Counted from the first letter of the stretch, positions 6,405 to 25,833 are shown. The stretch is DNA of 32,000 bases from an archaeon (GCA_043797265.1 JAZDPV010000002.1:8203-40202), one strand, 5' to 3'. Translations and numbers: made by a program. The notes: generated by a model from the letters alone, not told the origin.

Positions 6405-7000
6405 AATTAAACATCCCTTTTCGCAAATCAGAAATAGACACAGAATGCGCCCAAAGATGTCTCCAAATGGTTCTTGAATATTTCGAACAAAAACATTCAA
6501 TCAAAGAACTCTCAAAACTAACCAAACAACTCCCATCTGGAATGACATGGACAGCAGGAATAGCAAGAGCTTCAAAAATTCTCGGGTTCGAAACAAAAAT
6601 AATTTCCAAAACAAATTTTTCCCACGACGAAAACGAAATAAAATATTACAAAGAACACGCAAAAGAAATGAAAACACTTTACAATTTAATCAAAAAAAAT
6701 AAAAAACTAAAAATCTCGACAGAAGAAGAAAATCTCTCAATCAATCAACTAATAAAACTCCTAACAAAAAATTCAATCCCGATAATTCTTATTAATTGGA
6801 ATACATTAATCCAAAAAGAAAATTATCAAGGACATTTTGTAGTTCTTTCAGGATATGACAATAAAAATATATATATTCACAACCCTGGCATAGCAAAAGC
6901 CCAGCCATTTATGAAAATCAAAAAAGAATTATTCAAAAAAGCATGGGAATCAAAAGGCACCGACAAAGACATTGTATTAATTTCAAAACCCAAAATTTAA
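6401..7000 (+). CDS. Peptidase C39-like (papain-fold Cys peptidase) domain protein
   Basis: N-terminal Cys context (TECAQRCLQMVLEY) and downstream GHFVVLSGYD His motif, about 200 aa. ATGA overlap with ftsY. Confidence 0.5.
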   Translation: MKLNIPFRKSEIDTECAQRCLQMVLEYFEQKHSIKELSKLTKQLPSGMTWTAGIARASKILGFETKIISKTNFSHDENEIKYYKEHAKEMKTLYNLIKKNKKLKISTEEENLSINQLIKLLTKNSIPIILINWNTLIQKENYQGHFVVLSGYDNKNIYIHNPGIAKAQPFMKIKKELFKKAWESKGTDKDIVLISKPKI

Positions 7001-7025: not shown

Positions 7026-8384
7026 ATGGTACTAGACAAACTCGGCTCAGCGATAAAAGGCGGAATAAACAAAATATCAAACGCGATATTCGTCGACAAG
7101 AAACTCATAGATGGAATCGTCAAAGAAATCCAAAAAGCCCTAATCGAAGCCGACGTCAACGTCGAACTAGTTTTACAACTATCTCAAAAAATAAAAAAAC
7201 TCGCTTACGACGAAAACATAAAAAACATCGACAAAAAAGAACAACTAATAAAACTAATCCACGACGAAATTCTAAATCTATTAGGCGAAAAATCCGAACT
7301 CAAACTCCAAAAACAAACCTCAATAATATTCCTCGGACTTTACGGCGCCGGAAAAACAACGACAATCGCGAAAGTTGGATTCTATTATGCAAAACGAGGA
7401 CGAAAAGTTGCTTTACTTGGATTAGACACTCAGCGACCAGCCGCGATGGACCAGCTCGAACAAATGGCAAAAAAAGCCAAACTCTCAGTCTTCGTCGACA
7501 AAAAAGAAAAAGACCCAATCAAAATAATTAACAATTTCGAAAAAGACCTCAAAAAATACGACCTCATCTTAATCGACACCGCCGGCCGCGACGGACTGAA
7601 CAAAGAATTAACAAAAGAAATCGAGAAACTAAACAAGAAACTAAAACCAACCTACCGAATTTTAGTAATGCCCGCCGACATCGGGCAAGCCGCGAAAACT
7701 CAAACTCAAGAATTCCAAAAAGCACTTTCCATCGACGGTGTAATAATCACGCGAATGGACGGAACTTCAAAAGCCGGAGGAGCCCTGACCGCTTGCGCCG
7801 AAACCAAAGCCCCAGTTTTCTTCATCGGAGTCGGCGAACAAATCCACGAAATCGAAACCTTCGACCCAGAATCTTTCATCTCAAGAATACTCGGGATGGG
7901 CGACCTCCAAGGCCTACTCGAACACGTCAAATCCGCGACATCCGAAAAACAAATAAAAAAAGCCGAAGCCAGATTAAAAGAAGGCAAATTCACTCTCCGC
8001 GATTTGCAAACTCAATTAGAACAAATGAACAAAATGGGAAGTATGGACAAACTAATCGGCATGATTCCTGGAATGTCGTCAGCAAAACTCCCAAAAGACG
8101 TCCTCGCAAAACAAGAACAAAAAATGTCCCACTGGAAAAACGCAATCTCCTCAATGACCGAACTCGAAATTGAAACCCCCGAAATCCTCGAAAAACAAAC
8201 CTCCCGAATCCAGCGAATCGCAAAAGGTTCCGGCACAACCACAACCGAAATCCGCGAACTCCTAAAACAATACAAACTCCTCAAAGAAATGATGAGCATG
8301 CAATCCGGACTCACCGACGGCAAAATCGACCAAAAGATGATGCAGAAAATGGCGAAAAAATTTAAAGGGAAAATTAAATTATGA
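7026..8384 (+). CDS. srp54: Signal recognition particle protein SRP54
   Basis: GLYGAGKTTT, DTAGR, ITRMDG; Met-rich M-domain. Confidence 0.97.
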   Translation: MVLDKLGSAIKGGINKISNAIFVDKKLIDGIVKEIQKALIEADVNVELVLQLSQKIKKLAYDENIKNIDKKEQLIKLIHDEILNLLGEKSELKLQKQTSIIFLGLYGAGKTTTIAKVGFYYAKRGRKVALLGLDTQRPAAMDQLEQMAKKAKLSVFVDKKEKDPIKIINNFEKDLKKYDLILIDTAGRDGLNKELTKEIEKLNKKLKPTYRILVMPADIGQAAKTQTQEFQKALSIDGVIITRMDGTSKAGGALTACAETKAPVFFIGVGEQIHEIETFDPESFISRILGMGDLQGLLEHVKSATSEKQIKKAEARLKEGKFTLRDLQTQLEQMNKMGSMDKLIGMIPGMSSAKLPKDVLAKQEQKMSHWKNAISSMTELEIETPEILEKQTSRIQRIAKGSGTTTTEIRELLKQYKLLKEMMSMQSGLTDGKIDQKMMQKMAKKFKGKIKL

Positions 8385-11716: not shown

Positions 11717-12422
11717 ATGGAAGAAGGCGACTTGGTATTATGCAAGGTTGAACAAGTAACAAATACAATTACATCCGTGAAAACGCCAGACGGCCACGAA
11801 GGAACAATAATCTCGTCGGAAATCGCCCCCGGTCGAATCAAACTAATGCGCCAGTACGTCGTCCCGAATAAACAAATCGTCTGCAAAATTCTAAAAATAG
11901 AAGGCAACCGAATCCACCTATCCCTAAGACGAGTAACCTCAAAAGAAAAAAAAGAAGTAATGCAAAAATACAAACAAGCCCAGGCAATCAACGTCGCATT
12001 CAAACAAATCCTCGGCGAGAAAGAAGAACAGACAAAAGAAAAAATTCTCAAAGACTTCAAAGACCTCTCCGAATTCATCAACAAAATCAAAGAAGACGAA
12101 AAAATATTATCAAAATACATCCCAAAAGAAAAACAAGAAGCAATCAAAAAAGTTTCAGAAAAAAAAAAGAAAAAACATAGAATTAAAACAAAACATCAAA
12201 ATCAAATGCCCAGAAGAAGATGGGGTAAAAAGAATAAAAAAAATCTTCGACCTCGACGACAAAAACATTTCAATCACTTACATCTCGGCCGGAAATTTCA
12301 AATTAAAATTAACAATCGAAGATTTTAAACAAGGCAAAAAAAAAATAACAGAAATTATAGAAGAATTAGAAAAACGCGCAAAAGAAAACAACTGCGAATT
12401 TTTCGCCACCGAAGAAAAATGA
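11717..12422 (+). CDS. aIF2-alpha, reading frame broken by a +1 shift in an A10 run (12159-12168)
   Basis: S1 domain at the N-terminus (GDLVLCKVEQV...LSLRRV). After the A-run the track frame turns to K/R/N junk. The +1 frame reads IELKQNIKIKCPEEDGVKRIKKIF...ISITYISAGNFKLKLT...FFATEEK, typical of the aIF2-alpha C-domain, and ends at 12422 overlapping nop10. Confidence 0.75.
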
Positions 12423-12565
12423 CCACGCTAAAAAAATGCCCCGCCTGCAACAAATATACATTAAAAGAAAAATGTCCGAACTGCAACAAAGAAACAAAAC
12501 AAGCAAGTTATAAATTTATAAAAATCAAAAACGCCCCGCCACGCTCAGTCCCATTTAAAAAATAA
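12419..12565 (+). CDS. nop10: H/ACA RNP protein Nop10, 48 aa
   Basis: Hand translation MTTLKKCPACNKYTLKEKCPNCNKETKQASYKFIKIKNAPPRSVPFKK. Zinc ribbon; the rps27e-aIF2alpha-nop10 order is conserved in archaea. Confidence 0.8.
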   Translation: MTTLKKCPACNKYTLKEKCPNCNKETKQASYKFIKIKNAPPRSVPFKK

Positions 12566-12584
12566 TCACACCTCACCGACGACA

Positions 12585-12777
12585 TTCTTCACAATCTCCA
12601 TAAAATTCGCAGCGACCGAAGGGCGACCGAATTTTTCGCGTGGCTTTGCCACAAGACTAATTAAAAATTTCTTTCTTCATAATCTCCATAAAATTCGCAG
12701 CGACCGAAGGGCGACCGAATTTTTCGCGTGGCTTTGCCACAAAACTAATTAAAAATTTCTTTCTTCACAATCTCCAT
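12585..12777. repeat. 88-bp tandem repeat, 2.2 copies; the last partial copy is the 3' end of udg
   Basis: Unit ttcttcacaatctccataaaattcgcagcgaccgaagggcgaccgaatttttcgcgtggctttgccacaagactaattaaaaatttct starts at 12585, 12673 and 12761. The two full copies differ at 2 positions. Confidence 0.85.
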
Positions 12778-13374: not shown

Positions 13375-13446
13375 CGCCCCCACGAAGAATTGAACTCCGA
13401 TTACACCGACCGCAACGATGTGTTCTATCCGTTAAACTATGGGAGC
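13375..13446 (-). tRNA. tRNA-Arg (anticodon GCG), 72 nt
   Basis: GCTCCCA/TGGGGGC acceptor, CATCG-TTGCGGT-CGGTG anticodon arm, CGGAG-TTCAATT-CTTCG T arm. Confidence 0.8.
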
Positions 13447-13533
13447 TTAAATAACCCAACAAAGATAATTTATAAAAATATCTAATCAACTAATCATATC
13501 ACAAAAAACAAAACCGACACGTATCCTAACCGA

Positions 13534-13926
13534 CTATCTCTTCGCTCTAATTTCAATAAACTTATTTCTCTTGCCTTTCAAAACATACCACGCAATCCCA
13601 CCAATAACACCGACGACAACAAGAACAACCGCAACAATATCCCAACCAAGCTTCTCAACCAGCTCCGTAATCTCTTCCGTCTCTTCGGAAACCGTCCCAC
13701 CGCCCAAACCTCCCCCGCCACCAGCACCTCCCACCTCTTCACTAATAGTAGTCTCATTAGCCGTCGCATTAACGGTTCCTCCACCTCCGCCACCGCCTCC
13801 ACTATCAGTCGAAGCAGCAGCGGGTGGCGTCACCACCGCAGTAGGAACCACAACATTATATCCTGCCCCCGCAACTAAACCCATCATCAAAAATCCAACC
13901 AACAAAATACACAATTTCATCTCCAT
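13534..13926 (-). CDS. Small secreted, C-terminally anchored Gly-rich protein, 130 aa
   Basis: Signal peptide MEMKLCILLVGFLMMGLVAGAG, poly-G/acidic linker, and a C-terminal TM helix followed by KGKRNK. Its start lies 1 nt after the giant gene stop. Confidence 0.7.
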   Translation of the reverse strand: MEMKLCILLVGFLMMGLVAGAGYNVVVPTAVVTPPAAASTDSGGGGGGGGTVNATANETTISEEVGGAGGGGGLGGGTVSEETEEITELVEKLGWDIVAVVLVVVGVIGGIAWYVLKGKRNKFIEIRAKR

Positions 13927-13927
13927 C

Positions 13928-16900
13928 TTAAAATCCTAACGACACAGGAATTTTACATGCTGTCGCAGTAGTCCCTGTACAATTTACATAAGCACTAACA
14001 TTCTTGGCATTAGCCCCGGTATCATCCACAAAATTAAACGTATTAGCCGAAGAATAAGCAACCGGCATATTCATCTGAATATAATCCCCGGCACCGCCAA
14101 GATGCATATCATCAATCAAATTATTCCACTTCTTCAAACTCGAATTCATTCCCATCATATCCGTCGTCGCATTACAAATAAACGCACTACCCATATCAAT
14201 CTTCACCGGCTCATAAATATTAATCCCATAAAACCCAATACTTAAACCATCTCCACAATTACTATGCACCGTCATATTCATACTCTTTGTAACCGAAGTA
14301 TTCGTCTTTATCCCAACATCAAATGCGGTAGGCACACCATTAATAGTAAATGTCTCACTAAAATTATAACCAGTCTTATTCAGGGCAGGAATATCGACGG
14401 TATAACCATCCGGCAAATCAAGCTTAAAAATAAATGACTTCGGAACAATACTCGCCTTCGTTGTAAAATTAGCACAGGCAGAAACCCCGCAATTACCCGA
14501 CGGGTCACAAGTTTTAATCTTGTAATAATAAGCCGTCCCATTACTCAACGCATATCCCAAACTCCCACTAACTAAATCAATGGAATGAAATGGCTTAAAA
14601 TTCGCATACTGCTGATAGACCTCACTCCCTACATCCTCCATAGTAATATTCAAAACTTTACAAGTCGAATCACTCAGATAAAACAACACGCTCATATTCG
14701 AAGGTTCATTCGTATCGACCTTCATAAACGCCCCATCCCATAACGTATCAACCTTGCTAAACATTACCGTCGGCGCAACTTTATCAGTATTATTAGCCAC
14801 AAACGAAAATGCGGCCCCACTCGCACACTTAGGAGTAAATGCGCATATAGGATCCGCGCAATCCGCCAATCCATCCTCGTTATCATCAACTCCATTCATG
14901 CACTCCTCAAAAACATTAAACCCAAACTTCTGTATATTCTTGCACTTCGGATCCTTCGTACTCGGATTAGAACAATCAACAAATCCAAAATCAATACTCC
15001 CGGGAGTATAATATCCGGGCCCGACATAATCCGAAGGACTAGTTCTACTATCGCTGGCATCGGCGCTCGCCATATAAATCCTCATATTCGCCGTCTTAAC
15101 ATATTCCGAAAAAGATTCCAAATCCTGAAGCGCCACCGCCACCATCACTCCCCCAATCTCCCCACAACTCATCTTCTTACTTGTCGTGACTAAAGCATTA
15201 GTCGCCGTCCATGTCCCATTACTACACCTCATCAACTGCTTAGTCTCAACAACTCCGGCAGTAGTATTCCTCGCCACATAACTAATCATGAAATCATAAC
15301 CCGAATAATTCGTATCGCCTATAGCATCGCAAGCACCACTATTAACTCCGTCGGTATCTAAATACCAATAAAAACTACCAGAAGCATTTCCGGTTCCAAC
15401 AATCCCCGAACTCACAGTCCCATTCATCTGCATCATTGCCATAACATTATAACCATTACAGACAATAGAACCACTAATATTAAAAATACCCGCACCAAAA
15501 TTAAATCCCTCGGCACTAACTCTCATTCCAGTCCCCATAATATCCACCTCGCCCCCCACTCCGGCTTCTGCACTTGGACCAGACGGTCCAAAACTATTCC
15601 CAGAATCCATTACTAACTGAATAACATCCCCCTCCATCGCTCCAAAATGCTGGAACTCCGCCTTGTCCATACACCACCCACTCGGCTCCGTCGCTGATAA
15701 ATTATTATTAGAATAACTATCATTCTTATACTGACAAGTAACACTACTCAAAGCACATCCAGTTTCATTTCCATTATACTGCCAACATCCAGTCTTCCCG
15801 CCACTTCCCATCCCCATCATCATAAACGTCGACGGCTGACAAGTAGCACTCATATTCTTCCATTGACATAATCCGCCAAAAGTTTCATTTTCACAACCCG
15901 TTTGATTAAAATTTTGATTCATACAAGCAATATCGCACCACCCGCCAGTCATAGAAAAATTATCCGCTCTCCAAGTACAATTTAAATTAGCACCGCAAGA
16001 ACTAGAATTTAATTCCATACAAGCAGACATCGGAGCATAATCACACCATCCACCAGAAGAAACTCCTCCCCAAGTATTATTCTTCCATGCACACCCGGAC
16101 AAACCAGCACAAGCACTCTCGTTTGAAACACTCCAGCAAGCAGCATCATTCATCTTCGTCATATTCATCTCGCACCAAGCATTCGAACCCATTGAACTTG
16201 ACTCGTTCGTACACCCCGCAGTCGCGTTGCAAGTTACCAAATCATCATTAAACTTCCAACAATTAGAACCAGGCATATCGCACCACCCCGTCGGATTCCA
16301 AGTATCATTTATCCACGTACAATTTGAACTCCCAAAAGCAAGGGTAGAATTACAATCTCCCTCCGTCATCTGCGCAAAACAACCTCCCCCAAAAGAACTC
16401 CCTCCACAAAAATTATCAAACCCACAATCAGGGTCAGAACAATCAACTAATAAATCCGAATCATCGTCGACACCATTAAAACAAACTTCCCCCGCGAAAC
16501 CATTAGGTTTGCATAAATTAAATGTCTGGTCCCATGTACAATCTAAAGTCGTAGTATTATCAATACACGAAGCAAAATCATAACACGAAAAACAATCAGT
16601 ATTACAAACCTTCTTCGTCTTATCAACACAATAACCCGCACCAACTCCCGTAGCAGTATCATTCACCCACTGACATCCAACCCCAGCATTCGCGACGCTG
16701 CCAACACAAGCCGCATAAGGAGCATTCATAAAATCACAATCCTGGCACTTAGTATTGCAATCACCCGAACCCGAATATTCCATTTCCGTCGGATAATCAC
16801 ACCATCCCAAGCCATTGAACGCAGAGCTCCCATTTATCCAACTGCAATATCCCAACGCCGAACCAACACAAGCTGCCTCCGCCTCGGTAACATTGGCCCA

Positions 16901-18598
16901 CACACTTCCATTATATCTAAACTCACAAGCCCAACAAGAACTATCGCAATTTGCTTTATTCGCTTTCTGCCCTCCGTCATCAACATTAAAAAATCCCGTC
17001 ATCTCGCACCACGAATCTTGTTTCAAAATAGCACCGTCGATATAATACTCCGTCTGCCAAGTCCCTCCCGAAGCAGTACACGCCGTATCACTACTAACCG
17101 AACCAAAATCATTATCTCCTCCAAATCCAAACACCGCCCCCGAATTAAACGTGCAATTCTTCACAACCGCAGAACTATTGTCCCACTTGCACGGCATCAT
17201 ATATTCTTCAATTAATTGCGTACACAAAGTATAATTATTCTTAGAATCGGGATGCTCGCAAAACCCAACAGGCGGCGCACTTTTAACTACAGAATTTTTT
17301 CCAGCCGCACAAAACGCGCCAGTTAAATTTACAGAAGAATTCCAAACACAATTCGGCAAAGGCCCATAATTACAAGCAGATTTAATTTGTATATCCACGC
17401 AAGCCAAATTAGCAGAATTATCAGCATTAGTATAACTCCCTTTATCTAAAGCATCATGCCCCTCGCAATATCCCACAACCTTCCCATAACAAATATTATC
17501 AGTAGCATTAGACACATCATTTGGAGCAGTAGCATTCCCACCAGTACAATAAGCACAACCAGTTATATTCCCACAAACTAACGGCTGATTATCCGCAAAC
17601 CAGCAATGCGCCTCTCCACCAAACATAAAACCTCCCCCGCCCATCCCGGAACCTCCACCCGACGGCATCACGCAACCACCAGTAGAATTATACCAACCCC
17701 CGACGCTGAAACACGAATCACTATCATTAAAAAACATAAATCCTCCTCCTTCCATCTCCCCGCAAACTCCCGAATCACTTTGATTAAAAACACAAGGCAT
17801 CATCATTTCCATCTTGAGAGTGTCGCAAAGAGTTTGATTATCACCCGCCTCAGAACAACTTTTCGTATAACAACACCCAACAGAATTTTGGCACCACGGG
17901 TCACTCGCTTTACTCACCCAAGTACACGCCCCCGCAAAACTTCCATTAACACACAATGTTTCATTTCCCTCATAACTCCAACAACCCTTTTGGTCACAGC
18001 AACCGATATCCGTCGTCGTCGCAAGAGAATTTTTATTCTGAGCGTCACCCAATGTTTTTATCCAGCACCACGGATTCTGATTCACATCATTCGCCTTCCA
18101 CTCACAAGTTTGATAATCACTCAAACACTGTTGCTTGTTTCCATCATTGTTCCAACAGCCACTAGCCGGACCACCAAAATCGCCACTACTACTCCAATCC
18201 ATCATGCAAGTTCCATTCATCATATAAGAAGAACCATTCGGAAGATAATTCGTCATCGGGAAACCATTCCAAGTGCAATTCAAAGTTCCATCATTTGTCT
18301 CACAAATCGTTTCATCCGTCTCATCCCACTGCCAACATTGTTTTTCAAGACAACAATATTGCATCGACGAACCACACCAAGGATCAATTTCAACACTCCC
18401 ATAGCCAACAACACTCCCCGTAAAAGAAGTCACAAGGCACCCGCTCGAATTACACAAAGATGGAGTCCCACCATTCATCGAACCATACTGCCAACAATCA
18501 ATCCACGCCACAACAATCCCCGAACTCAACAAGACGCCAACAACTAAAACCAAACAAAACAAAAAAATTCTCGACGATTTCACCACCATCTTTATCAT
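13928..18598 (-). CDS. Giant secreted Cys/Trp/Asn-rich surface protein, 1556 aa
   Basis: Sec-type signal peptide. My hand count is 27 Cys in the first ~285 aa. Many N-x-S/T sequons. Recurrent CxW-N-x-S/T...GWCD modules. Two C-x-NG-V-DD-x-[DE]-[DG]-L-x-DC-x-DP-x-C motifs. An FN3-like segment (VDTNEPS...AYYYKIKTCDPSGNCG...FTT). No C-terminal TM. Confidence 0.9.
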   Translation of the reverse strand: MIKMVVKSSRIFLFCLVLVVGVLLSSGIVVAWIDCWQYGSMNGGTPSLCNSSGCLVTSFTGSVVGYGSVEIDPWCGSSMQYCCLEKQCWQWDETDETICETNDGTLNCTWNGFPMTNYLPNGSSYMMNGTCMMDWSSSGDFGGPASGCWNNDGNKQQCLSDYQTCEWKANDVNQNPWCWIKTLGDAQNKNSLATTTDIGCCDQKGCWSYEGNETLCVNGSFAGACTWVSKASDPWCQNSVGCCYTKSCSEAGDNQTLCDTLKMEMMMPCVFNQSDSGVCGEMEGGGFMFFNDSDSCFSVGGWYNSTGGCVMPSGGGSGMGGGGFMFGGEAHCWFADNQPLVCGNITGCAYCTGGNATAPNDVSNATDNICYGKVVGYCEGHDALDKGSYTNADNSANLACVDIQIKSACNYGPLPNCVWNSSVNLTGAFCAAGKNSVVKSAPPVGFCEHPDSKNNYTLCTQLIEEYMMPCKWDNSSAVVKNCTFNSGAVFGFGGDNDFGSVSSDTACTASGGTWQTEYYIDGAILKQDSWCEMTGFFNVDDGGQKANKANCDSSCWACEFRYNGSVWANVTEAEAACVGSALGYCSWINGSSAFNGLGWCDYPTEMEYSGSGDCNTKCQDCDFMNAPYAACVGSVANAGVGCQWVNDTATGVGAGYCVDKTKKVCNTDCFSCYDFASCIDNTTTLDCTWDQTFNLCKPNGFAGEVCFNGVDDDSDLLVDCSDPDCGFDNFCGGSSFGGGCFAQMTEGDCNSTLAFGSSNCTWINDTWNPTGWCDMPGSNCWKFNDDLVTCNATAGCTNESSSMGSNAWCEMNMTKMNDAACWSVSNESACAGLSGCAWKNNTWGGVSSGGWCDYAPMSACMELNSSSCGANLNCTWRADNFSMTGGWCDIACMNQNFNQTGCENETFGGLCQWKNMSATCQPSTFMMMGMGSGGKTGCWQYNGNETGCALSSVTCQYKNDSYSNNNLSATEPSGWCMDKAEFQHFGAMEGDVIQLVMDSGNSFGPSGPSAEAGVGGEVDIMGTGMRVSAEGFNFGAGIFNISGSIVCNGYNVMAMMQMNGTVSSGIVGTGNASGSFYWYLDTDGVNSGACDAIGDTNYSGYDFMISYVARNTTAGVVETKQLMRCSNGTWTATNALVTTSKKMSCGEIGGVMVAVALQDLESFSEYVKTANMRIYMASADASDSRTSPSDYVGPGYYTPGSIDFGFVDCSNPSTKDPKCKNIQKFGFNVFEECMNGVDDNEDGLADCADPICAFTPKCASGAAFSFVANNTDKVAPTVMFSKVDTLWDGAFMKVDTNEPSNMSVLFYLSDSTCKVLNITMEDVGSEVYQQYANFKPFHSIDLVSGSLGYALSNGTAYYYKIKTCDPSGNCGVSACANFTTKASIVPKSFIFKLDLPDGYTVDIPALNKTGYNFSETFTINGVPTAFDVGIKTNTSVTKSMNMTVHSNCGDGLSIGFYGINIYEPVKIDMGSAFICNATTDMMGMNSSLKKWNNLIDDMHLGGAGDYIQMNMPVAYSSANTFNFVDDTGANAKNVSAYVNCTGTTATACKIPVSLGF

Positions 18599-18615
18599 TA
18601 AGTTATAATAATTCC

Positions 18616-18623
18616 TTTAAATA
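18616..18623 (-). promoter_or_regulatory. TATA-like TATTTAAA about 22 nt upstream of the giant-gene ATG
   Basis: Read on the reverse strand: GTATTTAAAGGAATTATTATAACTTAATG. Confidence 0.4.
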
Positions 18624-18643
18624 CTTTTCCAAAAAATAAACAC

Positions 18644-18865
18644 CGTCGACTCTCGACGAAATTTTTCCCAATCCCAACCCCGCATTCCAGCCCCGCGACC
18701 GCGCGGGGCGGCGAAGCCGCCGAAAATATGAGAGCGAAGCTCTCTAATTTCCCCCTCCCTATTCCCAATTTCCCCTCCCTATTCCCATCCCCGCAAATTA
18801 AAATTTTAGCGCCAGGTTGTCCGTTGCTTCGCAACGGACGGGCGCGTTAAAAAATTTTAATTTGC
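18644..18865 (-). other. Structured, locally GC-rich intergenic block: four short hairpins, a tandem 21-mer rich in G-tracts (reverse strand), and a 73-nt long hairpin
   Basis: Short hairpins at 18644-18658, 18691-18708, 18707-18721 and 18730-18744. Tandem 21-mer at 18748-18788. Long hairpin at 18793-18865 with inner stem GTCCGTTGC-TTC-GCAACGGAC (18819-18839). Confidence 0.6.
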
Positions 18866-18888: not shown

Positions 18889-18923
18889 CCACCAGAAAAA
18901 GTTGGTAAGAAAACTTAGTGTTC

Positions 18924-19946
18924 TTACACCTCAACATCCTTCAACCCATCTGCCTCAATCATAAACGCCGTCGCATTATCCGGCAAATCCGGACTGTCAA
19001 TCAACTTCGCAATCCTCGAATCCTTCTTCCCTCGTCGAAGATAAATTCTGTAAGTGCAAGCATGTCCGACGATATTCCCCCCAATCGCTTTCGTCGGGTC
19101 CCCAAACAACTGCGCCGGGTCCGACATAACTTGATTCGTCACATACACCGCCAAATTATTTTGCTCGGCAACCCTCATCAAATCATGCAAATATCTATTC
19201 AGCCTCTGTTGCCTATCTGCCAACTGCCCCCGCCCAGTATACTCCGCCCGAAAATGCGCCGTCAACGAATCAACAATCACCAACCGAATCGGCTCTCCGT
19301 CCTTAATCATCTCCGCCACTTTCTCCAGCAACAACATCTGATGGTCCGAATTAAACGCCCTCGCAACCAAAATATTTTTCAGCACCTTGTCTGGATTCGC
19401 CCCAATTCCCGACGCAAACTGCCTGACTCTCTCCGGTCGAAATGTCCCCTCGGTATCAATGTAAACCGCCTTCCCATTTGCGCCCCCCTGCTCAATCGGC
19501 AACTGAACACTGACCGCCAACGACAAAGCAAGTTGAGTCTTCCCCGAACCAAAAGCCCCAAATGCCTCCGTTATCGCCTTCGTCTCAATCCCTTTCCCCC
19601 CAAGAAGCTCATCCAAATTCTTAGACCCCGTCGTAATATGAAACAACTCCTTCCTCTTCTGTTCATGCGCCAGCCCGTCGGAAAAACCCAAGTCCATCAT
19701 CTTCCTCGACGCCTGAATCGCCTTCCTCGCAACCGCCTCGCTCATCCCGGCCAACTCAGACAAACCCGCCGGAGTTAAAACCGCCAACCCCATCAAGTCA
19801 TAAATCCCCGCCGCCTCCAACTTCGCAACCGCCCCCGGTCCGACCCCCGGCAAGTCAATCAACTTCGCCTCTCCCTTCTTCCCGCCCTTCACCTCTTCAT
19901 CCCCAGAAACAACATCCTCGACATCACTACCTATCTTTTTTGCCAT
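18924..19946 (-). CDS. radA: Recombinase RadA
   Basis: HhH N-domain ([19 protein letters not shown]), Walker [22 protein letters not shown]. Confidence 0.97.
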
Positions 19947-20115
19947 CTCTCATTCCCTCAATTTCTTTTTTCATATTATAAACAACACACTCTCTGAAAT
20001 TATTTGAACCACAAACCCCATTCGTCACTTTGCATTCAAAACTCTCACCCTCACTGCGCATACTGAAATAAGGAGGCACCCTATCTCCTATATACTCGCA
20101 ACTTCCATCAGCCAT
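19927..20115 (-). CDS. Small Cys-rich protein, 62 aa, paralog of 20108..20293
   Basis: Shared pattern CEY...[ED]C[KR]...GVCxSxxxxxC. Overlaps the radA start by 20 nt and the upstream paralog by 8 nt. Confidence 0.55.
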
Positions 20116-20293
20116 CTACCACCCCCAACAACCCACGCGATTTCTTCTCCCACTCCTTAACCGCTAAATAAGTTTGACAACTCTCATAATCATCGGAATC
20201 ACAAACCCCATCTATCACAGCCCTACAATAATTCTTACAATCACCATTTCCCTCTCTTGCCATAAAAAAATACTCACATTCCTCATCCACCAT
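20108..20293 (-). CDS. Small Cys-rich protein, 61 aa, paralog of 19927..20115
   Basis: MVDEECEYFF...DCKNYCRAVIDGVCDSDDYESCQTY. ATG start confirmed. Confidence 0.55.
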   Translation of the reverse strand: MVDEECEYFFMAREGNGDCKNYCRAVIDGVCDSDDYESCQTYLAVKEWEKKSRGLLGVVDG

Positions 20294-22586: not shown

Positions 22587-23213
22587 ATGCCAATCACAAA
22601 AGAAGAAGCAGACAAAATCAAAGAACATCTCCTCAAACAACTCGACAACTTTCCCGAAGATAGACGCGAACAAATCACAAACCAAATCAATTCTATGACA
22701 AAAGAACAGGTCGAAAACTTCATCCAGCAAAACAAACTAACTCATCTCGGCGGACAATGCATCTTCTGCTCAATCGTCGCAAACAAAACCCCATCTTACA
22801 AAATTGCCAAAAACGAAGACAACATCGCCATCCTCGAAATAAACCCACTAAGCAAAGGCCACTCCCTCGTCGTCCCAAAAGAACACCTTGAAGAACTCCC
22901 CCAATCAGCAAAAGACCTCGCCCAAGAAGTCGCCCAAAAACTTCAGGAAACTTTCTCCCCAAGCGAAATCCAAATCAAAGAACTAAAAATAATGAACCAC
23001 CCCTTAATTGAAGTCGTCCCAATTTACGGCAACGATACTCCAATGCGTCAAAATTCAGGATACACCGAACGACGCAAAAAACAACAAGCATCCGAAGAAG
23101 AATTAAAAGAACTCCAAAAAGAAATCACAAAACCAAAAAAAATCGAGATCAACAATCAACAATCAACAATCAGCGACGAAGTCATCCCAATCCTCCCGCC
23201 AAGAATACCCTAA
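22587..23213 (+). CDS. HIT-like protein with a degenerate histidine triad
   Basis: CIFCSIV...ILEINPLSKGHSLVVPKEH is HIT-like, but the HxHxHxx position reads NHPLIEVVP. About 55-aa N-terminal and about 60-aa K/E-rich C-terminal extensions. Confidence 0.65.
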   Translation: MPITKEEADKIKEHLLKQLDNFPEDRREQITNQINSMTKEQVENFIQQNKLTHLGGQCIFCSIVANKTPSYKIAKNEDNIAILEINPLSKGHSLVVPKEHLEELPQSAKDLAQEVAQKLQETFSPSEIQIKELKIMNHPLIEVVPIYGNDTPMRQNSGYTERRKKQQASEEELKELQKEITKPKKIEINNQQSTISDEVIPILPPRIP

Positions 23214-24028
23214 CCAAAACCAATCAAACCAATAACCCAGCCCTTCAAAAAAGCATATTCCAAAAACGCAATCAAAAACGCCGGCACGAAAGGCAGCCCA
23301 TCTCTAATTTTAATATTCCTCCGCCCCTTCAATAATTTAATATTCTCCAACGACAAACCATCCCAGTCCGCTTCGATAATTTTCTTTCCAACCTTAATAT
23401 CTTCAATCAGCCAATCGCCCTCCCTCAAATCCCCCCCAGAAACAACTCTAATCATGACAACTTTTTCCAGCCCCTTCGCAAAAACATAAAGCCCAAGCCC
23501 CAACAAAACAAAAATCCCAAAAACGAAAAATATCCAATATAAAAATCCGAAAAATATTACCAGCACACCACATCCCGCTACCCACCATCTGCCATCCACC
23601 ATCTTTTTTATTTCCTCATTTACCTTCTCAAAATTCCTAACATACAAAACAGAAGAATAAGCCAAACCATAAATCGAACCAGCAACCATCAAGAACAAAA
23701 CAAAAATCCCAACATTCATCAACGTCTCACTAAAATTCGCACCAACAAAAAAAACCGTCATCGCAAACAACAACTTCGCATCCCCACCCGCAAAAACCCG
23801 GCCATAATAAAAAACATTCATAATCCCGAACATCAAAACCAGGGCAAACCCCGCCTGAAAAATAATCGAGCCATCGCCCTCAAAAATCGCCCGATAAAAA
23901 ATAAACGAAAAACTCACAACCAACAAAAACAAATTCAGCCAATTATCAACCTCGCGCCTTTTCAAATCCTGCAAAACAGCGACGACAATCCCGGCAAAAA
24001 ACAACCAAAACAAAAATCCAAACTCCAT
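23210..24028 (-). CDS. A24-family prepilin/preflagellin peptidase (PibD/FlaK/EppA-like)
   Basis: First Asp context VLQDLKRREVDN, second FAGGDAKLL, polytopic, with a C-terminal extra domain. First ATG at 24028; the track starts at TTG 24031. Confidence 0.85.
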   Translation of the reverse strand: MEFGFLFWLFFAGIVVAVLQDLKRREVDNWLNLFLLVVSFSFIFYRAIFEGDGSIIFQAGFALVLMFGIMNVFYYGRVFAGGDAKLLFAMTVFFVGANFSETLMNVGIFVLFLMVAGSIYGLAYSSVLYVRNFEKVNEEIKKMVDGRWWVAGCGVLVIFFGFLYWIFFVFGIFVLLGLGLYVFAKGLEKVVMIRVVSGGDLREGDWLIEDIKVGKKIIEADWDGLSLENIKLLKGRRNIKIRDGLPFVPAFLIAFLEYAFLKGWVIGLIGFG

Positions 24029-24204
24029 CAATCCTCCAAAACAGAAACTATACTCGCAACCAATGATGAAAGCAGCCCAAATGCACTTATCAAAAGTCCT
24101 TGCATCCCAAGAATATTTAATTTTATCAAAGTTATGGCAAAATAAATAAAAATCGCAAAATTAATTATCTGTGAAAAAATTGTCAATCCACGACTAACCC
24201 TCAT
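24028..24204 (-). CDS. 58-aa two-TM micro-protein
   Basis: Hand translation MRVSRGLTIFSQIINFAIFIYFAITLIKLNILGMQGLLISAFGLLSSLVASIVSVLED. TGATG overlap with the peptidase start. Confidence 0.35.
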   Translation of the reverse strand: MRVSRGLTIFSQIINFAIFIYFAITLIKLNILGMQGLLISAFGLLSSLVASIVSVLED

Positions 24205-24205
24205 C

Positions 24206-24310
24206 CTAAATCAAAAGAGCTTTGATTATCCCAAAAACAAGCAGTCCCAAAGCAATAAATCCCATCACCCAAGCAACCACCTGCAAAATTTCCAACACTC
24301 TTTTCTCCAT
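24206..24310 (-). CDS. 34-aa single-TM micro-protein
   Basis: Hand translation MEKRVLEILQVVAWVMGFIALGLLVFGIIKALLI. Its stop lies 1 nt before the next ATG. Confidence 0.3.
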   Translation of the reverse strand: MEKRVLEILQVVAWVMGFIALGLLVFGIIKALLI

Positions 24311-24474
24311 ACAGTAAAAACAACACTAATTTATTTAAACCTTCCTCTTTCTTTTTCTCTCACCCTCTTCAACTTCCTGCACTCGAAACTTTCCCCCGCG
24401 CTTATACCCCCGCGCTAACCTCTTTCTCCTTAAATCCTTTTTCGTCCGACGCCGCTCACTCCCGCCATACTCCA

Positions 24475-25026
24475 TCACTCGCCCCCCGCCTCGCTCTCGC
24501 TCACCACATACTCCCTCGCAAAATCATATTCAAACCAAACCGGAAAATTAATTCTGCCACTCTCCGGCGCCCTCAAAAAAATCTTCTTCCCCATCGTGTT
24601 CCTCCTGAAAATCAAATCTCCATTTCTACTAATCACCTCCGAATAAAGATTTTTGTCCAAAAACTCCCGCCCCTCTCTTCGCGCATCGTCCTCAAAATCC
24701 CGCCCGCCAAAAACCAAATCCCTAAAAATAAAATCACTCATCTGCTCGTCGGCAATCACGTCGTCCAAAAATCTGTTTCTAAATTCCAAAATAAATTCAT
24801 CACTCCCAAATTTCCCCTCGACACTTTTAGCCGTAAATTCAACCAGCGCCTTTTCTCTCACCTCAAAAATCTCCAAATCATCCCTCATCTCCAAAACCGC
24901 CCTCGGCGACACAAGCGAACTATCCGCATTACTCTGCTCAACTCCATAAAGCACCCAAACCACCCCGCACATAAACAAAGTCACCAAAACCAAGACCGCC
25001 GCAAAAACCTGCCCCCGATTATTCAC
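24475..25026 (-). CDS. Pilin-like protein (class III signal peptide MNNRGQ-VFAAVLVLVTLFM)
   Basis: The track ORF starts at TTG 25059. GTG at 25026 overlaps the upstream stop (GTGA) and gives a canonical short signal peptide. Confidence 0.6.
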   Translation of the reverse strand: MNNRGQVFAAVLVLVTLFMCGVVWVLYGVEQSNADSSLVSPRAVLEMRDDLEIFEVREKALVEFTAKSVEGKFGSDEFILEFRNRFLDDVIADEQMSDFIFRDLVFGGRDFEDDARREGREFLDKNLYSEVISRNGDLIFRRNTMGKKIFLRAPESGRINFPVWFEYDFAREYVVSESEAGGE

Positions 25027-25301
25027 CTTCCCATCTCCTTCGACAACCAACCTTTCCAATCCCCATTTTTTTCAACCACAATCCTCAACTGCGTCATATT
25101 ATTAAATTGCTTGTCCGCATAATCAAAAACGTCATCCACTCCAATATCAACCTCACCCTGGACGCCAAAACTATCTTCCCTCTGAACAATCTTCTTCACA
25201 ATCCCCGAAGCAACAATCATCACCACTAAAATTATAACAATAACTATCGTCGCCACAAACAACGAAACAAAACTTCCAATAATCCCCTTGCTACTCTTCA
25301 T
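25023..25301 (-). CDS. Pilin-like protein, 92 aa (MKSSKG-IIGSFVSLFVATIVIVIIL)
   Basis: Class III-type N-terminus; overlaps its neighbours. Confidence 0.65.
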   Translation of the reverse strand: MKSSKGIIGSFVSLFVATIVIVIILVVMIVASGIVKKIVQREDSFGVQGEVDIGVDDVFDYADKQFNNMTQLRIVVEKNGDWKGWLSKEMGR

Positions 25302-25785: not shown

Positions 25786-25800
25786 GCCAACCCCCTAAAA

Positions 25801-25833
25801 AATCCGTGTTGGTCCGTGTTGGTCCGTGTGCCA
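25801..25833. repeat. Triple-decamer repeat element (aatccgtgttggtccgtgttggtccgtgtgcca)
   Basis: Lies between a TATA-like ttatttttaaaa (25834-25845) and the ATG at 25785 of a pilin-like gene. Confidence 0.75.

What the first reader, a model, noticed from the sequence alone, without database searches (positions are those of the whole stretch)
13534..18598. 1556-aa Cys/Trp/Asn-rich secreted giant protein co-transcribed with a small Gly-rich membrane-anchored partner
The giant ORF has these features:
- a Sec-type signal peptide and no C-terminal anchor
- about 1 Cys per 10 residues over the first ~1000 aa (27 in the first ~285 by hand count)
- dozens of N-x-S/T sequons
- a recurring module of the form C-x-W-x-N-x-[ST]...G-W-C-D, for example NCTWINDTWNPTGWCD, GCAWKNNTWGGVSSGGWCD, NCTWRADNFSMTGGWCD and YCSWINGSSAFNGLGWCD
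- two Asp-rich motifs, CFNGVDDDSDLLVDCSDPDC and CMNGVDDNEDGLADCADPIC, which resemble known putative metal-binding repeats
- an FN3-like segment near the C-terminus

One nucleotide after its stop begins a 130-aa protein with a signal peptide, a poly-Gly/acidic linker and a C-terminal TM plus basic tail.

Inference: a heavily disulfide-bonded, glycosylated adhesin or S-layer-like protein that may be tethered by the small partner. I do not recognise the repeat module from any described family.
Basis: partly seen in the sequence, partly recalled or inferred. Interest (0 to 1): 0.7.

Follow-up and report, generated by a model that had tools for sequence, protein, structure and literature searches.

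The report
Split cysteine-rich archaeal surface glycoprotein
The giant cysteine-rich protein and the small protein after it are two halves of one conserved cell-surface glycoprotein of tiny DPANN archaea; in this lineage the gene split into a large outer part and its own detached membrane anchor.

Summary

**What it is**
- The window comes from a Woesearchaeota-type DPANN archaeon.
- The 1556-aa ORF belongs to a conserved, unnamed family. I found 94 clusters at 90% identity, mostly full-length matches at 40-75% identity.

**The split**
- In most relatives (54 of 69 aligned proteins, 27 of 36 species loci) the protein does not stop at ...VSLGF. It runs on through S-x-Y-x-[IVL], a poly-Gly/acidic stalk, a TM helix and a basic tail.
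- In one monophyletic subclade, which includes this window, the gene is cut exactly there: stop codon, 1 nt, ATG.
- The small ORF is that detached tail with a new signal peptide in front.
- The "partner" is therefore the giant's own former anchor. This is Rosetta-stone evidence that the two associate.

**The ectodomain**
- It has at least 13 copies of a ~40-aa four-Cys helix-plus-hairpin module. Nothing in Pfam, NCBIfam or PDB (sequence or fold) matches it.
- It has two acidic double-disulfide motifs like the Ca2+-binding teneurin C-rich domain.
- It has FN3/β-sandwich domains.
- Cysteines are gained and lost in pairs, and sequons are 2.7-fold enriched.

**Reading and limits**
- Best reading: a disulfide- and Ca2+-stabilised surface glycoprotein that works in two parts, like SlaA/SlaB.
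- Whether it is an S-layer or an adhesin is unresolved.

The parts
18603..18623 (-). Putative archaeal promoter of the giant gene. TATA-like TATTTAAAG lies at 18623-18615 and TATTATAA at 18610-18603.
   Evidence: Sequence read. The last 30 nt before the ATG are 90-93% identical in related loci L012 and L019, while the rest of the intergenic region is not conserved. Promoter function is inferred.
13928..18598 (-). Giant ectodomain gene, 1556 aa including the stop codon at 13928-13930. An alternative start lies at the second ATG, 18589.
   Evidence: P0001 is a 100% identical NCBI hypothetical protein.
18506..18598 (-). Signal peptide of the giant, aa 1-31: MIKMVVKSSRIFLFCLVLVVGVLLSSGIVVA.
   Evidence: It is the only hydrophobic segment of the protein. 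AF2 predicts a helix at aa 6-26. The cleavage site is predicted, not shown.
15659..18505 (-). Cys-rich region, aa 32-980. It holds at least 13 copies of a ~35-50 aa four-Cys module (short helix or helices plus a beta-hairpin, C..C..CxW..(G)WC) and other disulfide-rich segments.
   Evidence: hhalign self-comparison gives pairwise probabilities up to 96% and P down to 3e-9. AF2 pLDDT is 78.8 with a repeating H-H-E-E pattern. Nearly all Cys are invariant.
16403..16489 (-). Acidic double-disulfide (Ca2+-binding-type) motif 1, aa 704-732.
   Evidence: NCBIfam NF033662 reports two stretches. The family profile matches the teneurin-4 C-rich domain 7plp at E = 0.0027. That domain binds three Ca2+ (PMC9058538).
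14984..15631 (-). Beta-rich domain, aa 990-1205.
   Evidence: AF2 pLDDT is about 90 and the region is mostly strands. No specific PDB match was found.
14825..14908 (-). Acidic double-disulfide motif 2, aa 1231-1258.
   Evidence: NF033662 best stretch, E 6.2e-10 and 38.7 bits against a cut-off of 41.
14444..14776 (-). FN3-like beta-sandwich, aa ~1275-1385.
   Evidence: AF2. Foldseek hits FN3 domains, including 2ee2 at probability 1.00 and E 3.6e-3. Pfam has no hit. The boundaries are my reading of the secondary-structure string.
13931..14443 (-). C-terminal beta-sandwich domain(s), aa 1386-1556, ending ...CKIPVSLGF. This is the proposed docking site for the anchor.
   Evidence: AF2. The ending C-x-[VI]-P-[VT]-S-[LM]-G-F is conserved in all homologs.
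13924..13930 (-). Fission junction: stop TAA (13930-13928), 1-nt spacer (13927), ATG of the anchor gene (13926-13924).
   Evidence: The same TA[AG]-N-ATG junction occurs in all 10 split genomes.
13534..13926 (-). Anchor gene, 130 aa plus stop. It is the detached C-terminal stalk and TM of the ancestral protein.
   Evidence: phmmer aligns aa 21-129 to the extreme C-termini of fused homologs (P0030 E 5e-16, P0040 E 1e-12). Orthologs sit in the same position in 9 other species.
13864..13926 (-). Newly acquired signal peptide of the anchor, aa 1-21: MEMKLCILLVGFLMMGLVAGA.
   Evidence: It is absent from fused homologs and present in all split ones.
13837..13863 (-). Conserved mature N-terminus GYNVVVPTA. 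It is the counterpart of S-A-Y-T-[VI]-T-V-P, which directly follows ...GF in fused proteins, and is the proposed docking strand.
   Evidence: It is the only strongly conserved block of the small protein, with G, A, G, Y, V, P invariant in 10 of 10. In 54 fused homologs, +1 is S in 54 of 54, +3 is Y in 53 of 54, and +5 is I/V/L in 53 of 54.
13648..13836 (-). Poly-Gly / Thr / acidic low-complexity stalk, aa 31-93, with NAT and NET sequons.
   Evidence: The same kind of linker is present in fused tails.
13537..13647 (-). TM helix (aa 94-116) and basic cytoplasmic tail KGKRNKFIEIRAKR (aa 117-130).
   Evidence: Hydropathy. The tail motif W-Y-x-L-K...K-F-[VI]-[ED]-I-[KR] is shared with fused P0033, P0040 and P0022.
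13503..13513 (-). Oligo-T tract TTTTGTTTTTT, 20 nt after the anchor's stop. Putative archaeal terminator of the bicistronic unit. tRNA-Arg follows at 13375-13446.
   Evidence: Sequence and tRNA. Terminator function is inferred.

Best explanation
**What it is.** The two ORFs are the two halves of one ancestral type I membrane cell-surface glycoprotein of Woesearchaeota/Pacearchaeota-type DPANN archaea.

**Ancestral form.** It is still found in most relatives. It consists of a signal peptide, a ~1500-aa ectodomain, a poly-Gly/Thr/acidic stalk, a TM helix and a basic tail.

**The split.** In the subclade that contains this window, a short insertion right after the last ectodomain domain introduced a stop codon, a 1-nt spacer, a start codon and a new signal peptide. 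The ectodomain and its stalk/anchor are now made as two exported proteins from one, probably translationally coupled, bicistronic unit.

**Proposed mechanism (inferred).**
1. Both proteins are Sec-exported.
2. The ectodomain folds outside the cell into a rigid array. It contains at least 13 four-Cys modules (about 54 disulfides; co-loss of Cys pairs suggests 1-3 pairing in two modules), two Ca2+-binding acidic motifs and FN3/β-sandwich domains, and it is heavily N-glycosylated.
3. The anchor's signal peptide is cleaved after AGA, exposing GYNVVVP. This is the same β-strand-like segment that follows ...VSLGF in fused proteins.
4. That segment re-docks non-covalently onto the giant's last β-sandwich domain. 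The large glycoprotein is thereby held on a flexible stalk above the membrane, functionally like SlaA on SlaB.

**Role.** The protein most likely forms the main outer coat (S-layer-like) and/or contact surface of the cell.

**Sub-confidences.**
- Fission of one ancestral surface protein: about 0.95.
- The halves still associate at the surface: about 0.6.
- Envelope or S-layer-type role rather than a dedicated adhesin: about 0.45.
For: **Fission**
- 54 of 69 aligned homologs continue past VSLGF with S-x-Y-x-[IVL]..P, poly-G, a linker, a TM and a basic tail. The other 15 stop there.
- Of 36 GTDB species loci, 27 are fused. Nine are split, and each of those has a 119-214-aa ORF starting 1 nt after the stop. 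The junction is always TA[AG]-N-ATG.
- Small ORF aa 21-129 aligns to the extreme C-termini of fused giants, with E down to 5e-16.
- An optional ~110-aa domain seen in some fused tails also occurs in the 209-214-aa small ORFs of L012, L019 and L027.
- The split set is monophyletic and nested among fused lineages. Distant relatives also end in a TM plus basic tail.

**Continued partnership**
- The only conserved block of the small protein is LV[AS]GAGYN[VI]VVP, at the position homologous to the strand that follows the last domain in fused forms.
- The 1-nt stop/start spacing is conserved in 10 species.

**Surface glycoprotein**
- It has a signal peptide and is acidic (157 D+E against 66 K+R).
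- It has 59 sequons against 21.9 expected.

**Disulfides**
- Ectodomain Cys counts are even in 59 of 69 homologs, P = 6.9e-10.
- Among the 27 variable Cys columns, I found eight two-column sets and three larger sets that are present or absent together, with at most one exception each. They include C148/C165 and C248/C269.
- There are no Cys in the stalks.

**Ca2+ motif**
- NF033662 at E 6e-10. Teneurin-4 C-rich domain at E 0.0027, which binds three Ca2+ (PMC9058538).

**Exposed, fast-evolving locus**
- In L007, RadA is 96% identical, UDG 90%, the giant 74% and the anchor 53%.
- In L049, RadA is 87% identical, but the gene in the same radA-UDG slot is only 29% identical in the ectodomain. Its signal peptide (72%) and stalk/TM (44%) are better kept.
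Against: - No expression, proteomic or imaging data exist for this lineage. Abundance and lattice formation are untested.
- 7% Cys is atypical for S-layer proteins. The review says haloarchaeal ones lack Cys and that Cys is rare in bacterial ones (PMC5744192).
- Docking of the anchor's N-terminal strand onto the giant is inferred from homology and conservation.
- The family has further members at other loci (P0090) and larger relatives of 2000-5600 aa. This is not necessarily the only major surface protein.
- How an anaerobic DPANN cell would oxidise about 54 disulfides is unknown. No oxidoreductase is visible in the window.
Confidence: 0.6

Rival explanations
1. This is a dedicated host- or partner-cell adhesin or receptor of an ectosymbiotic DPANN cell, not a lattice-forming envelope protein. 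The modular Cys-rich, Ca2+-binding, FN3-containing ectodomain works like eukaryotic adhesion receptors such as teneurins and tenascins. It sits at low copy number on its stalk.
For: - The domain repertoire (Ca2+-binding C-rich motif, FN3, arrays of small disulfide modules) is that of adhesion proteins.
- The ectodomain is hypervariable or replaced at a conserved locus.
- High Cys content is atypical for S-layers.
- Related proteins occur in several architectures and lengths.
- A pilin-peptidase and Laminin_G cluster lies nearby.
Against: - In close and moderately close relatives the gene is conserved full-length in a housekeeping neighbourhood (RPA-YdjM-RadA-giant-UDG).
- No assembly contributed two loci in the pattern scan.
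- The architecture (acidic, sequon-rich, stalk plus TM) equally fits archaeal S-layer glycoproteins.
- No ligand-binding domain was identified.
Confidence: 0.3
2. After the fission the giant became a released, soluble secreted protein (an exoprotein, or a shed decoy). The small ORF is an independent mucin-like membrane protein or a decaying remnant with no interaction with the giant.
For: - The giant has no anchor of its own.
- Most of the small protein is low-complexity and poorly conserved, at 35-57% identity.
Against: - The small ORF is intact in all 10 split species. It always has a signal peptide, the same 1-nt coupling, and an invariant GAGY..VP block exactly at the position homologous to the segment adjoining the giant's last domain.
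- A remnant would not have needed to acquire and keep a signal peptide.
Confidence: 0.1
3. The conserved cysteines bind metals or Fe-S clusters, for example for extracellular redox chemistry or metal sequestration, rather than forming disulfides.
For: - Three consecutive segments start with C-x3-C-x2-C: CDSSCWAC, CNTKCQDC and CNTDCFSC.
- These archaea are thought to live in anoxic settings, where disulfide formation is not trivial (my own knowledge).
Against: - Cys counts are even and Cys are gained and lost in pairs.
- There is almost no His, only 7 residues.
- Spacing in most modules is C-x9-C-x6-8-C-x10-15-C rather than CxxC knuckles.
- No match to any metal-cluster family in Pfam, NCBIfam or PDB.
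- The location is extracellular and glycosylated.
Confidence: 0.04
4. The split is an assembly or sequencing artefact, or a pseudogenising mutation, in an otherwise single gene.
For: Another gene in the window, eIF2alpha, does show an apparent frameshift in a homopolymer run.
Against: - The same junction, plus a 20-30-codon signal-peptide insertion, is present in ten independent species-level assemblies and 15 protein clusters.
- The split set is monophyletic.
Confidence: 0.01

Closest known systems
Sulfolobales S-layer pair SlaA / SlaB
   Same: - A large glycosylated outer protein without an anchor is paired with a smaller stalk protein that has a C-terminal TM helix.
- The two genes are adjacent and bicistronic, and the proteins associate non-covalently (PMC5744192).
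- The split form here has the same logic and gene order.
   Different: - There is no sequence or fold similarity. Neither the PDB sequence searches nor the Foldseek searches returned SlaA or SlaB.
- SlaB has beta-sandwich domains and a trimeric coiled coil. The anchor here is a short strand plus a Gly/acidic low-complexity stalk.
- The pair here demonstrably arose by fission of one gene. No such origin is mentioned for SlaA/SlaB in the review I read.
Haloarchaeal S-layer glycoprotein (csg of Haloferax / Halobacterium)
   Same: - It is a single polypeptide with a signal peptide, a large acidic N-glycosylated ectodomain and a C-terminal TM anchor. That a Thr-rich stalk lies next to the membrane is my own knowledge.
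- This matches the ancestral fused form of this family.
   Different: - Haloarchaeal proteins lack Cys, whereas this family has 100-114.
- csg is processed by archaeosortase ArtA and lipid-modified; that this acts at a PGF-CTERM signal is my own knowledge. No PGF-CTERM was detected here.
- There is no sequence homology.
NCBIfam NF033662 acidic double-disulfide repeat, and the teneurin C-rich Ca2+-binding domain (PDB 7PLP), related to thrombospondin type 3 repeats
   Same: - The two motifs C-x-N-G-x-D-D-x-x-D-x-x-x-D-C-x-D-P-x-C match NF033662 (E 6e-10) and the teneurin-4 C-rich domain (profile E 0.0027).
- The acidic residues that coordinate Ca2+ in teneurin line up with acidic residues here.
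   Different: - There are only two isolated copies in a 1556-aa protein. Many NF033662-type proteins carry 10-36 tandem copies.
- The window protein scores just under the curated cut-off (38.7 against 41 bits).
- Ca2+ binding is not shown.
Candidate DPANN S-layer proteins (NEQ300 of Nanoarchaeum equitans, MJ1_0160 of Nanobdella aerobiophila, Micr_00292)
   Same: They are large, sequon-rich, signal-peptide-bearing surface proteins of DPANN cells built from Ig-like folds. MJ1_0160 also lacks a C-terminal TM and was compared with SlaA (preprint 10.1101/2023.10.27.564410).
   Different: - The preprint's text holds no mention of cysteine (0 occurrences).
- I could not compare sequences directly.
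- Those proteins come from other DPANN orders.
Giardia variant-specific surface proteins and other eukaryotic Cys-rich type I surface coats (analogy only)
   Same: They are Cys-rich ectodomains on a single C-terminal TM with a short basic tail. They form a protease-resistant coat and the gene is hypervariable (abstract of PMC6341118; the rest is my own knowledge).
   Different: They are an unrelated lineage with unrelated CXXC-type repeats. I claim no homology.

Membership tests
Archaeal S-layer glycoprotein (generic class) | N-terminal Sec signal peptide and an extracellular location | tested here: met
   There is a single N-terminal hydrophobic segment, and AF2 predicts a helix at aa 6-26. 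This is a sequence-level prediction only.
Archaeal S-layer glycoprotein (generic class) | Acidic, heavily N-glycosylated large protein | tested here: met
   157 D+E against 66 K+R. 59 sequons against 21.9 +/- 4.1 expected. Homologs have 24-72 sequons. Glycosylation itself is not shown.
Archaeal S-layer glycoprotein (generic class) | Attachment to the membrane by a C-terminal TM, a lipid, or a partner stalk protein | tested here: met
   A fused C-terminal TM is present in 54 of 69 homologs. A detached homologous anchor is present here.
Archaeal S-layer glycoprotein (generic class) | Forms a 2-D paracrystalline lattice and is among the most abundant cell proteins | not testable with these tools
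   No culture, cryo-ET or proteome is available. A Woesearchaeota metatranscriptome paper lists unnamed 'S-layer protein genes' among top-expressed genes, but they cannot be mapped to this family.
Archaeal S-layer glycoprotein (generic class) | Few or no cysteines (typical, not absolute) | tested here: not met
   7.0% Cys, with 108 in the mature protein. The review notes that Cys is lacking or rare in S-layer proteins.
SlaA/SlaB two-component S-layer | Adjacent, co-oriented genes for an outer protein and a TM-anchored stalk protein | tested here: met
   The genes are spaced 1 nt apart on the same strand, and this holds in 10 species.
SlaA/SlaB two-component S-layer | Sequence or fold homology to SlaA or SlaB | tested here: not met
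   Neither appeared among the PDB sequence hits or the Foldseek hits listed.
SlaA/SlaB two-component S-layer | Stalk built from beta-sandwich domains plus a coiled coil | tested here: not met
   The anchor here is a 9-residue conserved strand, a Gly/acidic low-complexity linker and a TM. Some orthologs add one ~110-aa domain.
NF033662 acidic double-disulfide repeat | HMM score above the curated cut-off | tested here: inconclusive
   The window protein scores 38.7 bits against a cut-off of 41 (E 6.2e-10, two stretches). Of the four homologs tested, three pass the cut-off (P0092 45.1, P0090 54.0 and P0088 64.0 bits) and one does not (P0034, 38.5 bits).
Teneurin-type C-rich Ca2+-binding domain | Acidic residues plus Cys pattern, and binding of three Ca2+ | tested here: inconclusive
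   Sequence similarity is E 0.15 for the single sequence and 0.0027 for the profile, over about 30 residues. Ca2+ binding is not testable here.
Fibronectin type III domain | FN3 beta-sandwich fold | tested here: inconclusive
   Foldseek gives probability 1.00 but E 3.6e-3 to 2ee2, and weak multi-FN3 hits. There is no Pfam FN3 hit.
PGF-CTERM / archaeosortase-anchored surface proteins | PGF-CTERM sorting signal or PGF-pre-PGF domain | tested here: not met
   There is no such hit in the window proteins or in four tested tails. Among the proteins I scanned, only P0092 has TIGR04213; NCBI and JGI also give that name to two other distant relatives, P0112 and P0239.
Any described domain family for the C..C..CxW..GWC module | Significant match in Pfam-A, NCBIfam, PDB sequences or PDB folds | tested here: not met
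   Pfam gives 0 families at E <= 0.1. NCBIfam hits only the acidic repeat. The PDB profile search hits only teneurin at the acidic motif. The best Foldseek PDB hit is E 4.3 and the best BFVD hit is E 0.13. Small disulfide-rich modules are hard targets for Foldseek.

The most novel reading that the evidence does not exclude
The four-Cys helix-plus-hairpin module is a previously undescribed extracellular fold. Arrays of it, locked by about 54 disulfides and Ca2+, build the principal S-layer or coat of Woesearchaeota/Pacearchaeota-type DPANN archaea. That would be the first Cys-rich archaeal S-layer.

The fission in this subclade is then a natural split-protein experiment. It would show that one short N-terminal β-strand of a stalk protein is enough to hold a ~160-kDa canopy protein, giving an evolutionary route from one-component to SlaA/SlaB-type two-component S-layers.

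The radA-UDG slot would be a surface-variation hotspot where ectodomains are swapped between conserved signal-peptide and anchor ends.
Probability: 0.2. Interest if true: 0.75.

Novelty: new variant of a known kind. Interest (0 to 1): 0.55.

Why it matters
**Why it matters**
- According to a 2023 preprint, no S-layer or major surface protein has been determined experimentally for any DPANN archaeon (10.1101/2023.10.27.564410).
- Woesearchaeota and Pacearchaeota are abundant and uncultured. Their cell surface is presumably where contact with hosts and viruses happens.
- This family is a concrete, conserved and easily recognised candidate for that surface.
- Its module is unmatched by anything in Pfam, NCBIfam or PDB. 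It is a good target for structure determination and for an HMM to annotate hundreds of "hypothetical proteins".
- The gene fission gives a clean prediction of a protein-protein interface and a worked example of how a two-component anchor system can evolve from a single chain.
- An ectodomain with more than 100 conserved disulfide-type cysteines in organisms from largely anoxic habitats raises a testable question: how is extracellular disulfide formation achieved in archaea with tiny genomes?

Tried and rejected
- **Pfam-A and NCBIfam on the giant and the small ORF.** Nothing matched except the acidic repeat.
- **PDB sequence searches, single sequence and family profile.** Only the teneurin C-rich motif matched.
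- **Foldseek of both AF2 models.** The C-terminal part gave only generic FN3 and β-sandwich hits. The N-terminal Cys-rich part gave nothing against PDB or BFVD.
- **The optional ~110-aa tail domain as a PGF-pre-PGF domain.** I tested two long small ORFs and two fused tails. None hit.
- **Cys/Trp/Gly richness as a by-product of the extreme G+T bias of the coding strand.** Rejected, because about 100 Cys columns are invariant or nearly so across homologs down to 40% identity, and the Asn richness runs against the bias.
- **Sequencing error, read-through or frameshift as the cause of the split.** Rejected by ten independent assemblies with the same junction and an inserted signal peptide.
- **The GC-rich, hairpin-rich intergenic element upstream of the giant (18640-18860) as a possible regulatory RNA.** There is no credible Rfam match. 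Fold z is only -2.8. It is not conserved in relatives.
- **Literature searches** (Woesearchaeota, Pacearchaeota, DPANN with S-layer, cysteine-rich, surface protein, disulfide). No description of this family turned up.
- **Modelling the giant-anchor interface.** I could not do it.

Full report
**1. Observation**

- The ORF at 13928..18598 (-) is 1556 aa. The next ORF, 13534..13926 (-), is 130 aa and starts 1 nt after the giant's TAA.
- The giant has 109 Cys (7.0%), 44 Trp, 133 Asn and 178 Gly, but only 8 Arg and 7 His. It has 27 Cys in the first 285 residues.
- It has 59 N-x-S/T sequons, against 21.9 +/- 4.1 in shuffles (maximum 37 in 2000).
- The four C-x-W...GWCD strings and the two Asp-rich motifs are at the stated places.
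- The giant's only hydrophobic segment is the N-terminal signal peptide. The small protein has an N-terminal signal-like segment, a Gly/acidic linker, a TM at aa ~94-116 and the tail KGKRNKFIEIRAKR.

**2. Organism and context**

- Neighbouring genes are archaeal housekeeping genes: RadA, an RPA-like OB-fold protein, YdjM, UDG, eIF2alpha, a DHH (RecJ/Cdc45-type) protein, GINS, FtsY, SRP54, ribosomal S3Ae and adenylate kinase.
- The identical protein is an NCBI "hypothetical protein [archaeon]". Relatives come from MAGs labelled Woesearchaeota, Pacearchaeota, Nanoarchaeota and Aenigmatarchaeota, so these are DPANN archaea.
- The order RPA-YdjM-RadA-giant-(anchor)-UDG/eIF2alpha recurs in relatives.

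**3. The family**

- A search of 5.8 billion proteins gave 94 clusters. Most are full-length matches at 40-75% identity and none carries a functional name.
- In a 69-sequence alignment, about 100 Cys columns are invariant or nearly so.
- A profile of the module region (aa 545-985) found 935 cluster representatives at E <= 1e-3 among 1.84 billion, and 90 at E <= 1e-30. Most of those 90 align across most of the region. The weaker hits are mostly unrelated proteins with 10-36 tandem copies of the acidic repeat only.
- The few named distant members are DPANN proteins: a "PGF-pre-PGF domain-containing protein" from an Aenigmatarchaeota MAG, a "MopE-related protein" from a Nanoarchaeota MAG, and a hypothetical protein from a Woesearchaeota MAG.

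**4. Key result: the small ORF is the giant's detached anchor**

*Fused and split forms*
- In 54 of 69 aligned homologs the protein does not end at ...C-K-[IV]-P-[VT]-S-[LM]-G-F.
- It continues with S-A-Y-T-[VI]-T-V-P, an Ala/Ser/Thr stretch, poly-Gly, an acidic/Thr linker (sometimes with one extra ~110-aa domain), a TM helix and a basic tail.
- The 15 closest homologs (62-69% identical to the window protein in the alignment) stop at GF, as the window protein does.

*Species loci*
- A scan of one genome per GTDB species returned 42 loci from 42 different assemblies. I could evaluate the junction in 36.
- 27 are fused, with tails of 98-277 aa containing a TM.
- 9 are split. In every split locus an ORF of 119-214 aa starts exactly 1 nt after the stop. 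The junction is always GG[AG]-[TC]TT-TA[AG]-N-ATG.

*Homology of the small ORF to the fused tails*
- These small ORFs all have a signal peptide ending LV[AS]GA, followed by GYN[VI]VVP, poly-Gly, a linker, a TM and a basic tail.
- phmmer aligns window small-ORF residues 21-129, which is the predicted mature protein, to the extreme C-termini of fused giants: P0030 at E 5e-16 and P0040 at E 1e-12.
- The cytoplasmic tail motif is shared: WYVLKGKRNKFIEIRAKR here, WYFLADRRKKFVDIRVK in P0040.
- The optional tail domain of some fused proteins reappears in the 209-214-aa small ORFs.

*Direction of the change*
- In a neighbour-joining tree the 15 split sequences form one clade nested among fused lineages. 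The sister group is fused.
- Distant relatives also end in a TM plus basic tail.
- The fused type I membrane protein is therefore ancestral. A single insertion carrying a stop, a start and a signal peptide split it in this subclade.

**5. Anatomy of the ectodomain**

*Cys-rich region*
- The AF2 model of aa 1-1010 (74-sequence alignment, pLDDT 78.8) shows a string of small units, each with one or two short helices followed by a β-hairpin.
- Profile-profile self-comparison shows these units are homologous repeats. They lie at aa 33-86, 85-135, 146-181, 204-247, 549-603, 612-657, 667-700, 738-776, 780-811, 819-855, 858-891, 892-922 and 936-979. Pairwise probabilities reach 96% and P values reach 3e-9.
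- The consensus is C-W-x-Y-[DN]-G-N-x-T-x-C ... C-x-W-x-N-D-[ST] ... G-W-C-[DM].
- Nothing in Pfam-A, NCBIfam, PDB sequences or PDB/BFVD folds matches this region.

*Acidic motifs*
- The two Asp-rich motifs match NCBIfam NF033662 "acidic double-disulfide repeat" (E 6.2e-10, 38.7 bits, just under the 41-bit cut-off).
- As a family profile they match the teneurin-4 C-rich domain (PDB 7PLP) at E 0.0027.
- That domain coordinates three Ca2+ through its conserved acidic residues (PMC9058538).

*C-terminal part*
- The model of aa 985-1556 is confident (pLDDT 88.3) and all-β.
- Foldseek finds only generic FN3 and β-sandwich similarity.

**6. Disulfides and glycans**

- Ectodomain Cys counts in the homologs run from 100 to 114 and are even in 59 of 69 (binomial P = 6.9e-10). 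The stalks contain essentially no Cys.
- Of the 27 variable Cys columns, most fall into sets whose members are present or absent together in the same sequences, with at most one exception each. Examples:
  - C148/C165: both present in 66 sequences, both absent in 3, never one alone.
  - C248/C269: 66/3/0.
  - Extra pairs inside hairpin loops: 29/40/0 and 18/51/0.
- In both canonical modules where this can be read, the first and third Cys are lost together. This suggests 1-3 (and so 2-4) pairing in those two modules.
- All of this fits disulfides and argues against metal clusters.
- Sequon enrichment (section 1) and counts of 24-72 sequons in homologs fit heavy N-glycosylation.

**7. How it most likely works**

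*Shown*
- Gene structure, homology of the anchor to the fused tails, conservation patterns and domain predictions.

*Inferred*
- A TATA-like element lies 10-25 nt upstream of the first ATG. It sits in the only conserved part of the upstream spacer. It probably drives a bicistronic mRNA that ends at an oligo-T tract 20 nt after the anchor's stop.
- The 1-nt stop/start spacing suggests termination-reinitiation coupling.
- Both products are exported by Sec.
- Signal-peptidase cleavage after AGA would expose GYNVVVP. This lines up with positions +2 to +8 of the segment that follows GF in fused proteins.
- In 54 fused proteins, position +1 is always Ser, +3 is Tyr in 53, and +5 is I/V/L in 53. That alternating pattern is typical of a β-strand packing against a domain.
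- The same block is the only strongly conserved part of the small protein.
- I therefore propose that this strand docks onto the giant's last β-sandwich. The ectodomain is then held on a flexible Gly/acidic stalk, as SlaB holds SlaA.

**8. The locus is variable**

- In L007, RadA is 96% identical to the window's, UDG 90%, the giant 74% and the anchor 53%.
- In L049, RadA is 87% and YdjM 70% identical, which is as close as the split-clade members.
- The gene in the same radA-UDG slot of L049 is a fused 1977-aa relative whose ectodomain is only 29% identical. Its signal peptide is 72% identical, and its stalk/TM is 44% identical to the small ORF of L009.
- This mosaic suggests either ectodomain replacement between conserved ends or very fast divergence. 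Both are expected for an exposed major surface protein.

**9. Comparison with known systems**

- Functionally, the fused form resembles haloarchaeal S-layer glycoproteins and the split form resembles SlaA/SlaB (PMC5744192).
- It is not a member of either family. There is no sequence or fold similarity, there is no PGF-CTERM, and its Cys content is the opposite of what is typical for S-layer proteins.
- The acidic motifs belong, or nearly belong, to a described repeat.
- The four-Cys module belongs to nothing described that I could find.

**10. Verdict**

- The finding is real. Its interpretation is sharpened rather than overturned.
- It is a new variant of a known kind: an archaeal membrane-anchored surface glycoprotein with an undescribed Cys-rich module and a lineage-specific fission into ectodomain and anchor.
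- The family exists in databases only as hypothetical proteins, and I found no paper describing it.

**11. Limits**

- There is no expression or imaging evidence.
- The docking interface was not modelled.
- Disulfide connectivity is inferred from co-loss patterns.
- The species scan used two exact peptide patterns, so prevalence is a lower bound.
- The tree is a simple distance tree.

Noticed in passing
window 1-32000 (whole window): The window shows extreme strand compositional asymmetry that does not depend on gene orientation. Third codon positions of + strand genes are A 47%, C 36%, G 8%, T 10%. Those of - strand genes, on their own coding strand, are G 38%, T 44%, A 11%, C 8%. Per-kb GC skew runs from -0.14 to -0.71. 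It looks like a replication-type strand bias of unusual size. It also explains long spurious antisense ORFs such as 17606-18547 (+) and 18918-19778 (+).
   Followed up: partly
window 11717-12600 (+): The eIF2alpha gene appears frameshifted in an A-rich homopolymer run near 12165-12190. The S1 domain is in the frame of 11717. A plausible C-terminal domain continues in the +1 frame, to about 12420. This is either an assembly error or a real or programmed shift. A Nop10-like zinc-ribbon ORF follows, at about 12437-12583.
   Followed up: partly
window 18640-18860 (-), between radA and the giant gene: This is a GC-rich intergenic element in an AT-rich genome. It has several stable tetraloop hairpins (UUCG, GAAG) and a tandem GGGAATAGGGAGGGG(G)AAATT repeat. 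Fold z is -2.8. There is no credible Rfam match. It is not conserved in related loci. Its function is unknown.
   Followed up: partly
window 19927-20115 and 20108-20293 (-): Two overlapping tandem small ORFs of 62 and 61 aa, each with 4-5 Cys and a shared C-E-Y start motif, lie between radA and ydjM. A 67-72-aa ORF occupies the same position in L001, L002 and L003.
   Followed up: no
window 23210-31457 (-): A type IV prepilin peptidase (Peptidase_A24, 23210-24031) is followed by a run of unannotatable ORFs (24475-29602) and a 379-aa Laminin_G_3 / ConA-like lectin protein (30318-31457). This may be a pilus or adhesion gene cluster.
   Followed up: no
window 6401-7000 (+): A C39-like cysteine peptidase / 'Guanylate_cyc_2' family ORF sits between ftsY (5355-6404) and srp54 (7026-8384).
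   Followed up: no
L049 3001-8934 (GCA_030605415.1): A 1977-aa fused relative (P0091) occupies the same radA-UDG slot in a genome whose RadA is 87% identical to the window's. Its ectodomain is only 29% identical, while its signal peptide (72%) and stalk/TM are much better kept. This suggests cassette-like ectodomain replacement at the locus.
   Followed up: partly
L001 9709-11004, L003 9495-10694, L005 8622-11135: In several genomes with the fused form, a protein carrying the MJ0043_C domain (PF27218) follows the giant gene closely. In L005 it contains an intein. It is absent from this position in the window.
   Followed up: no
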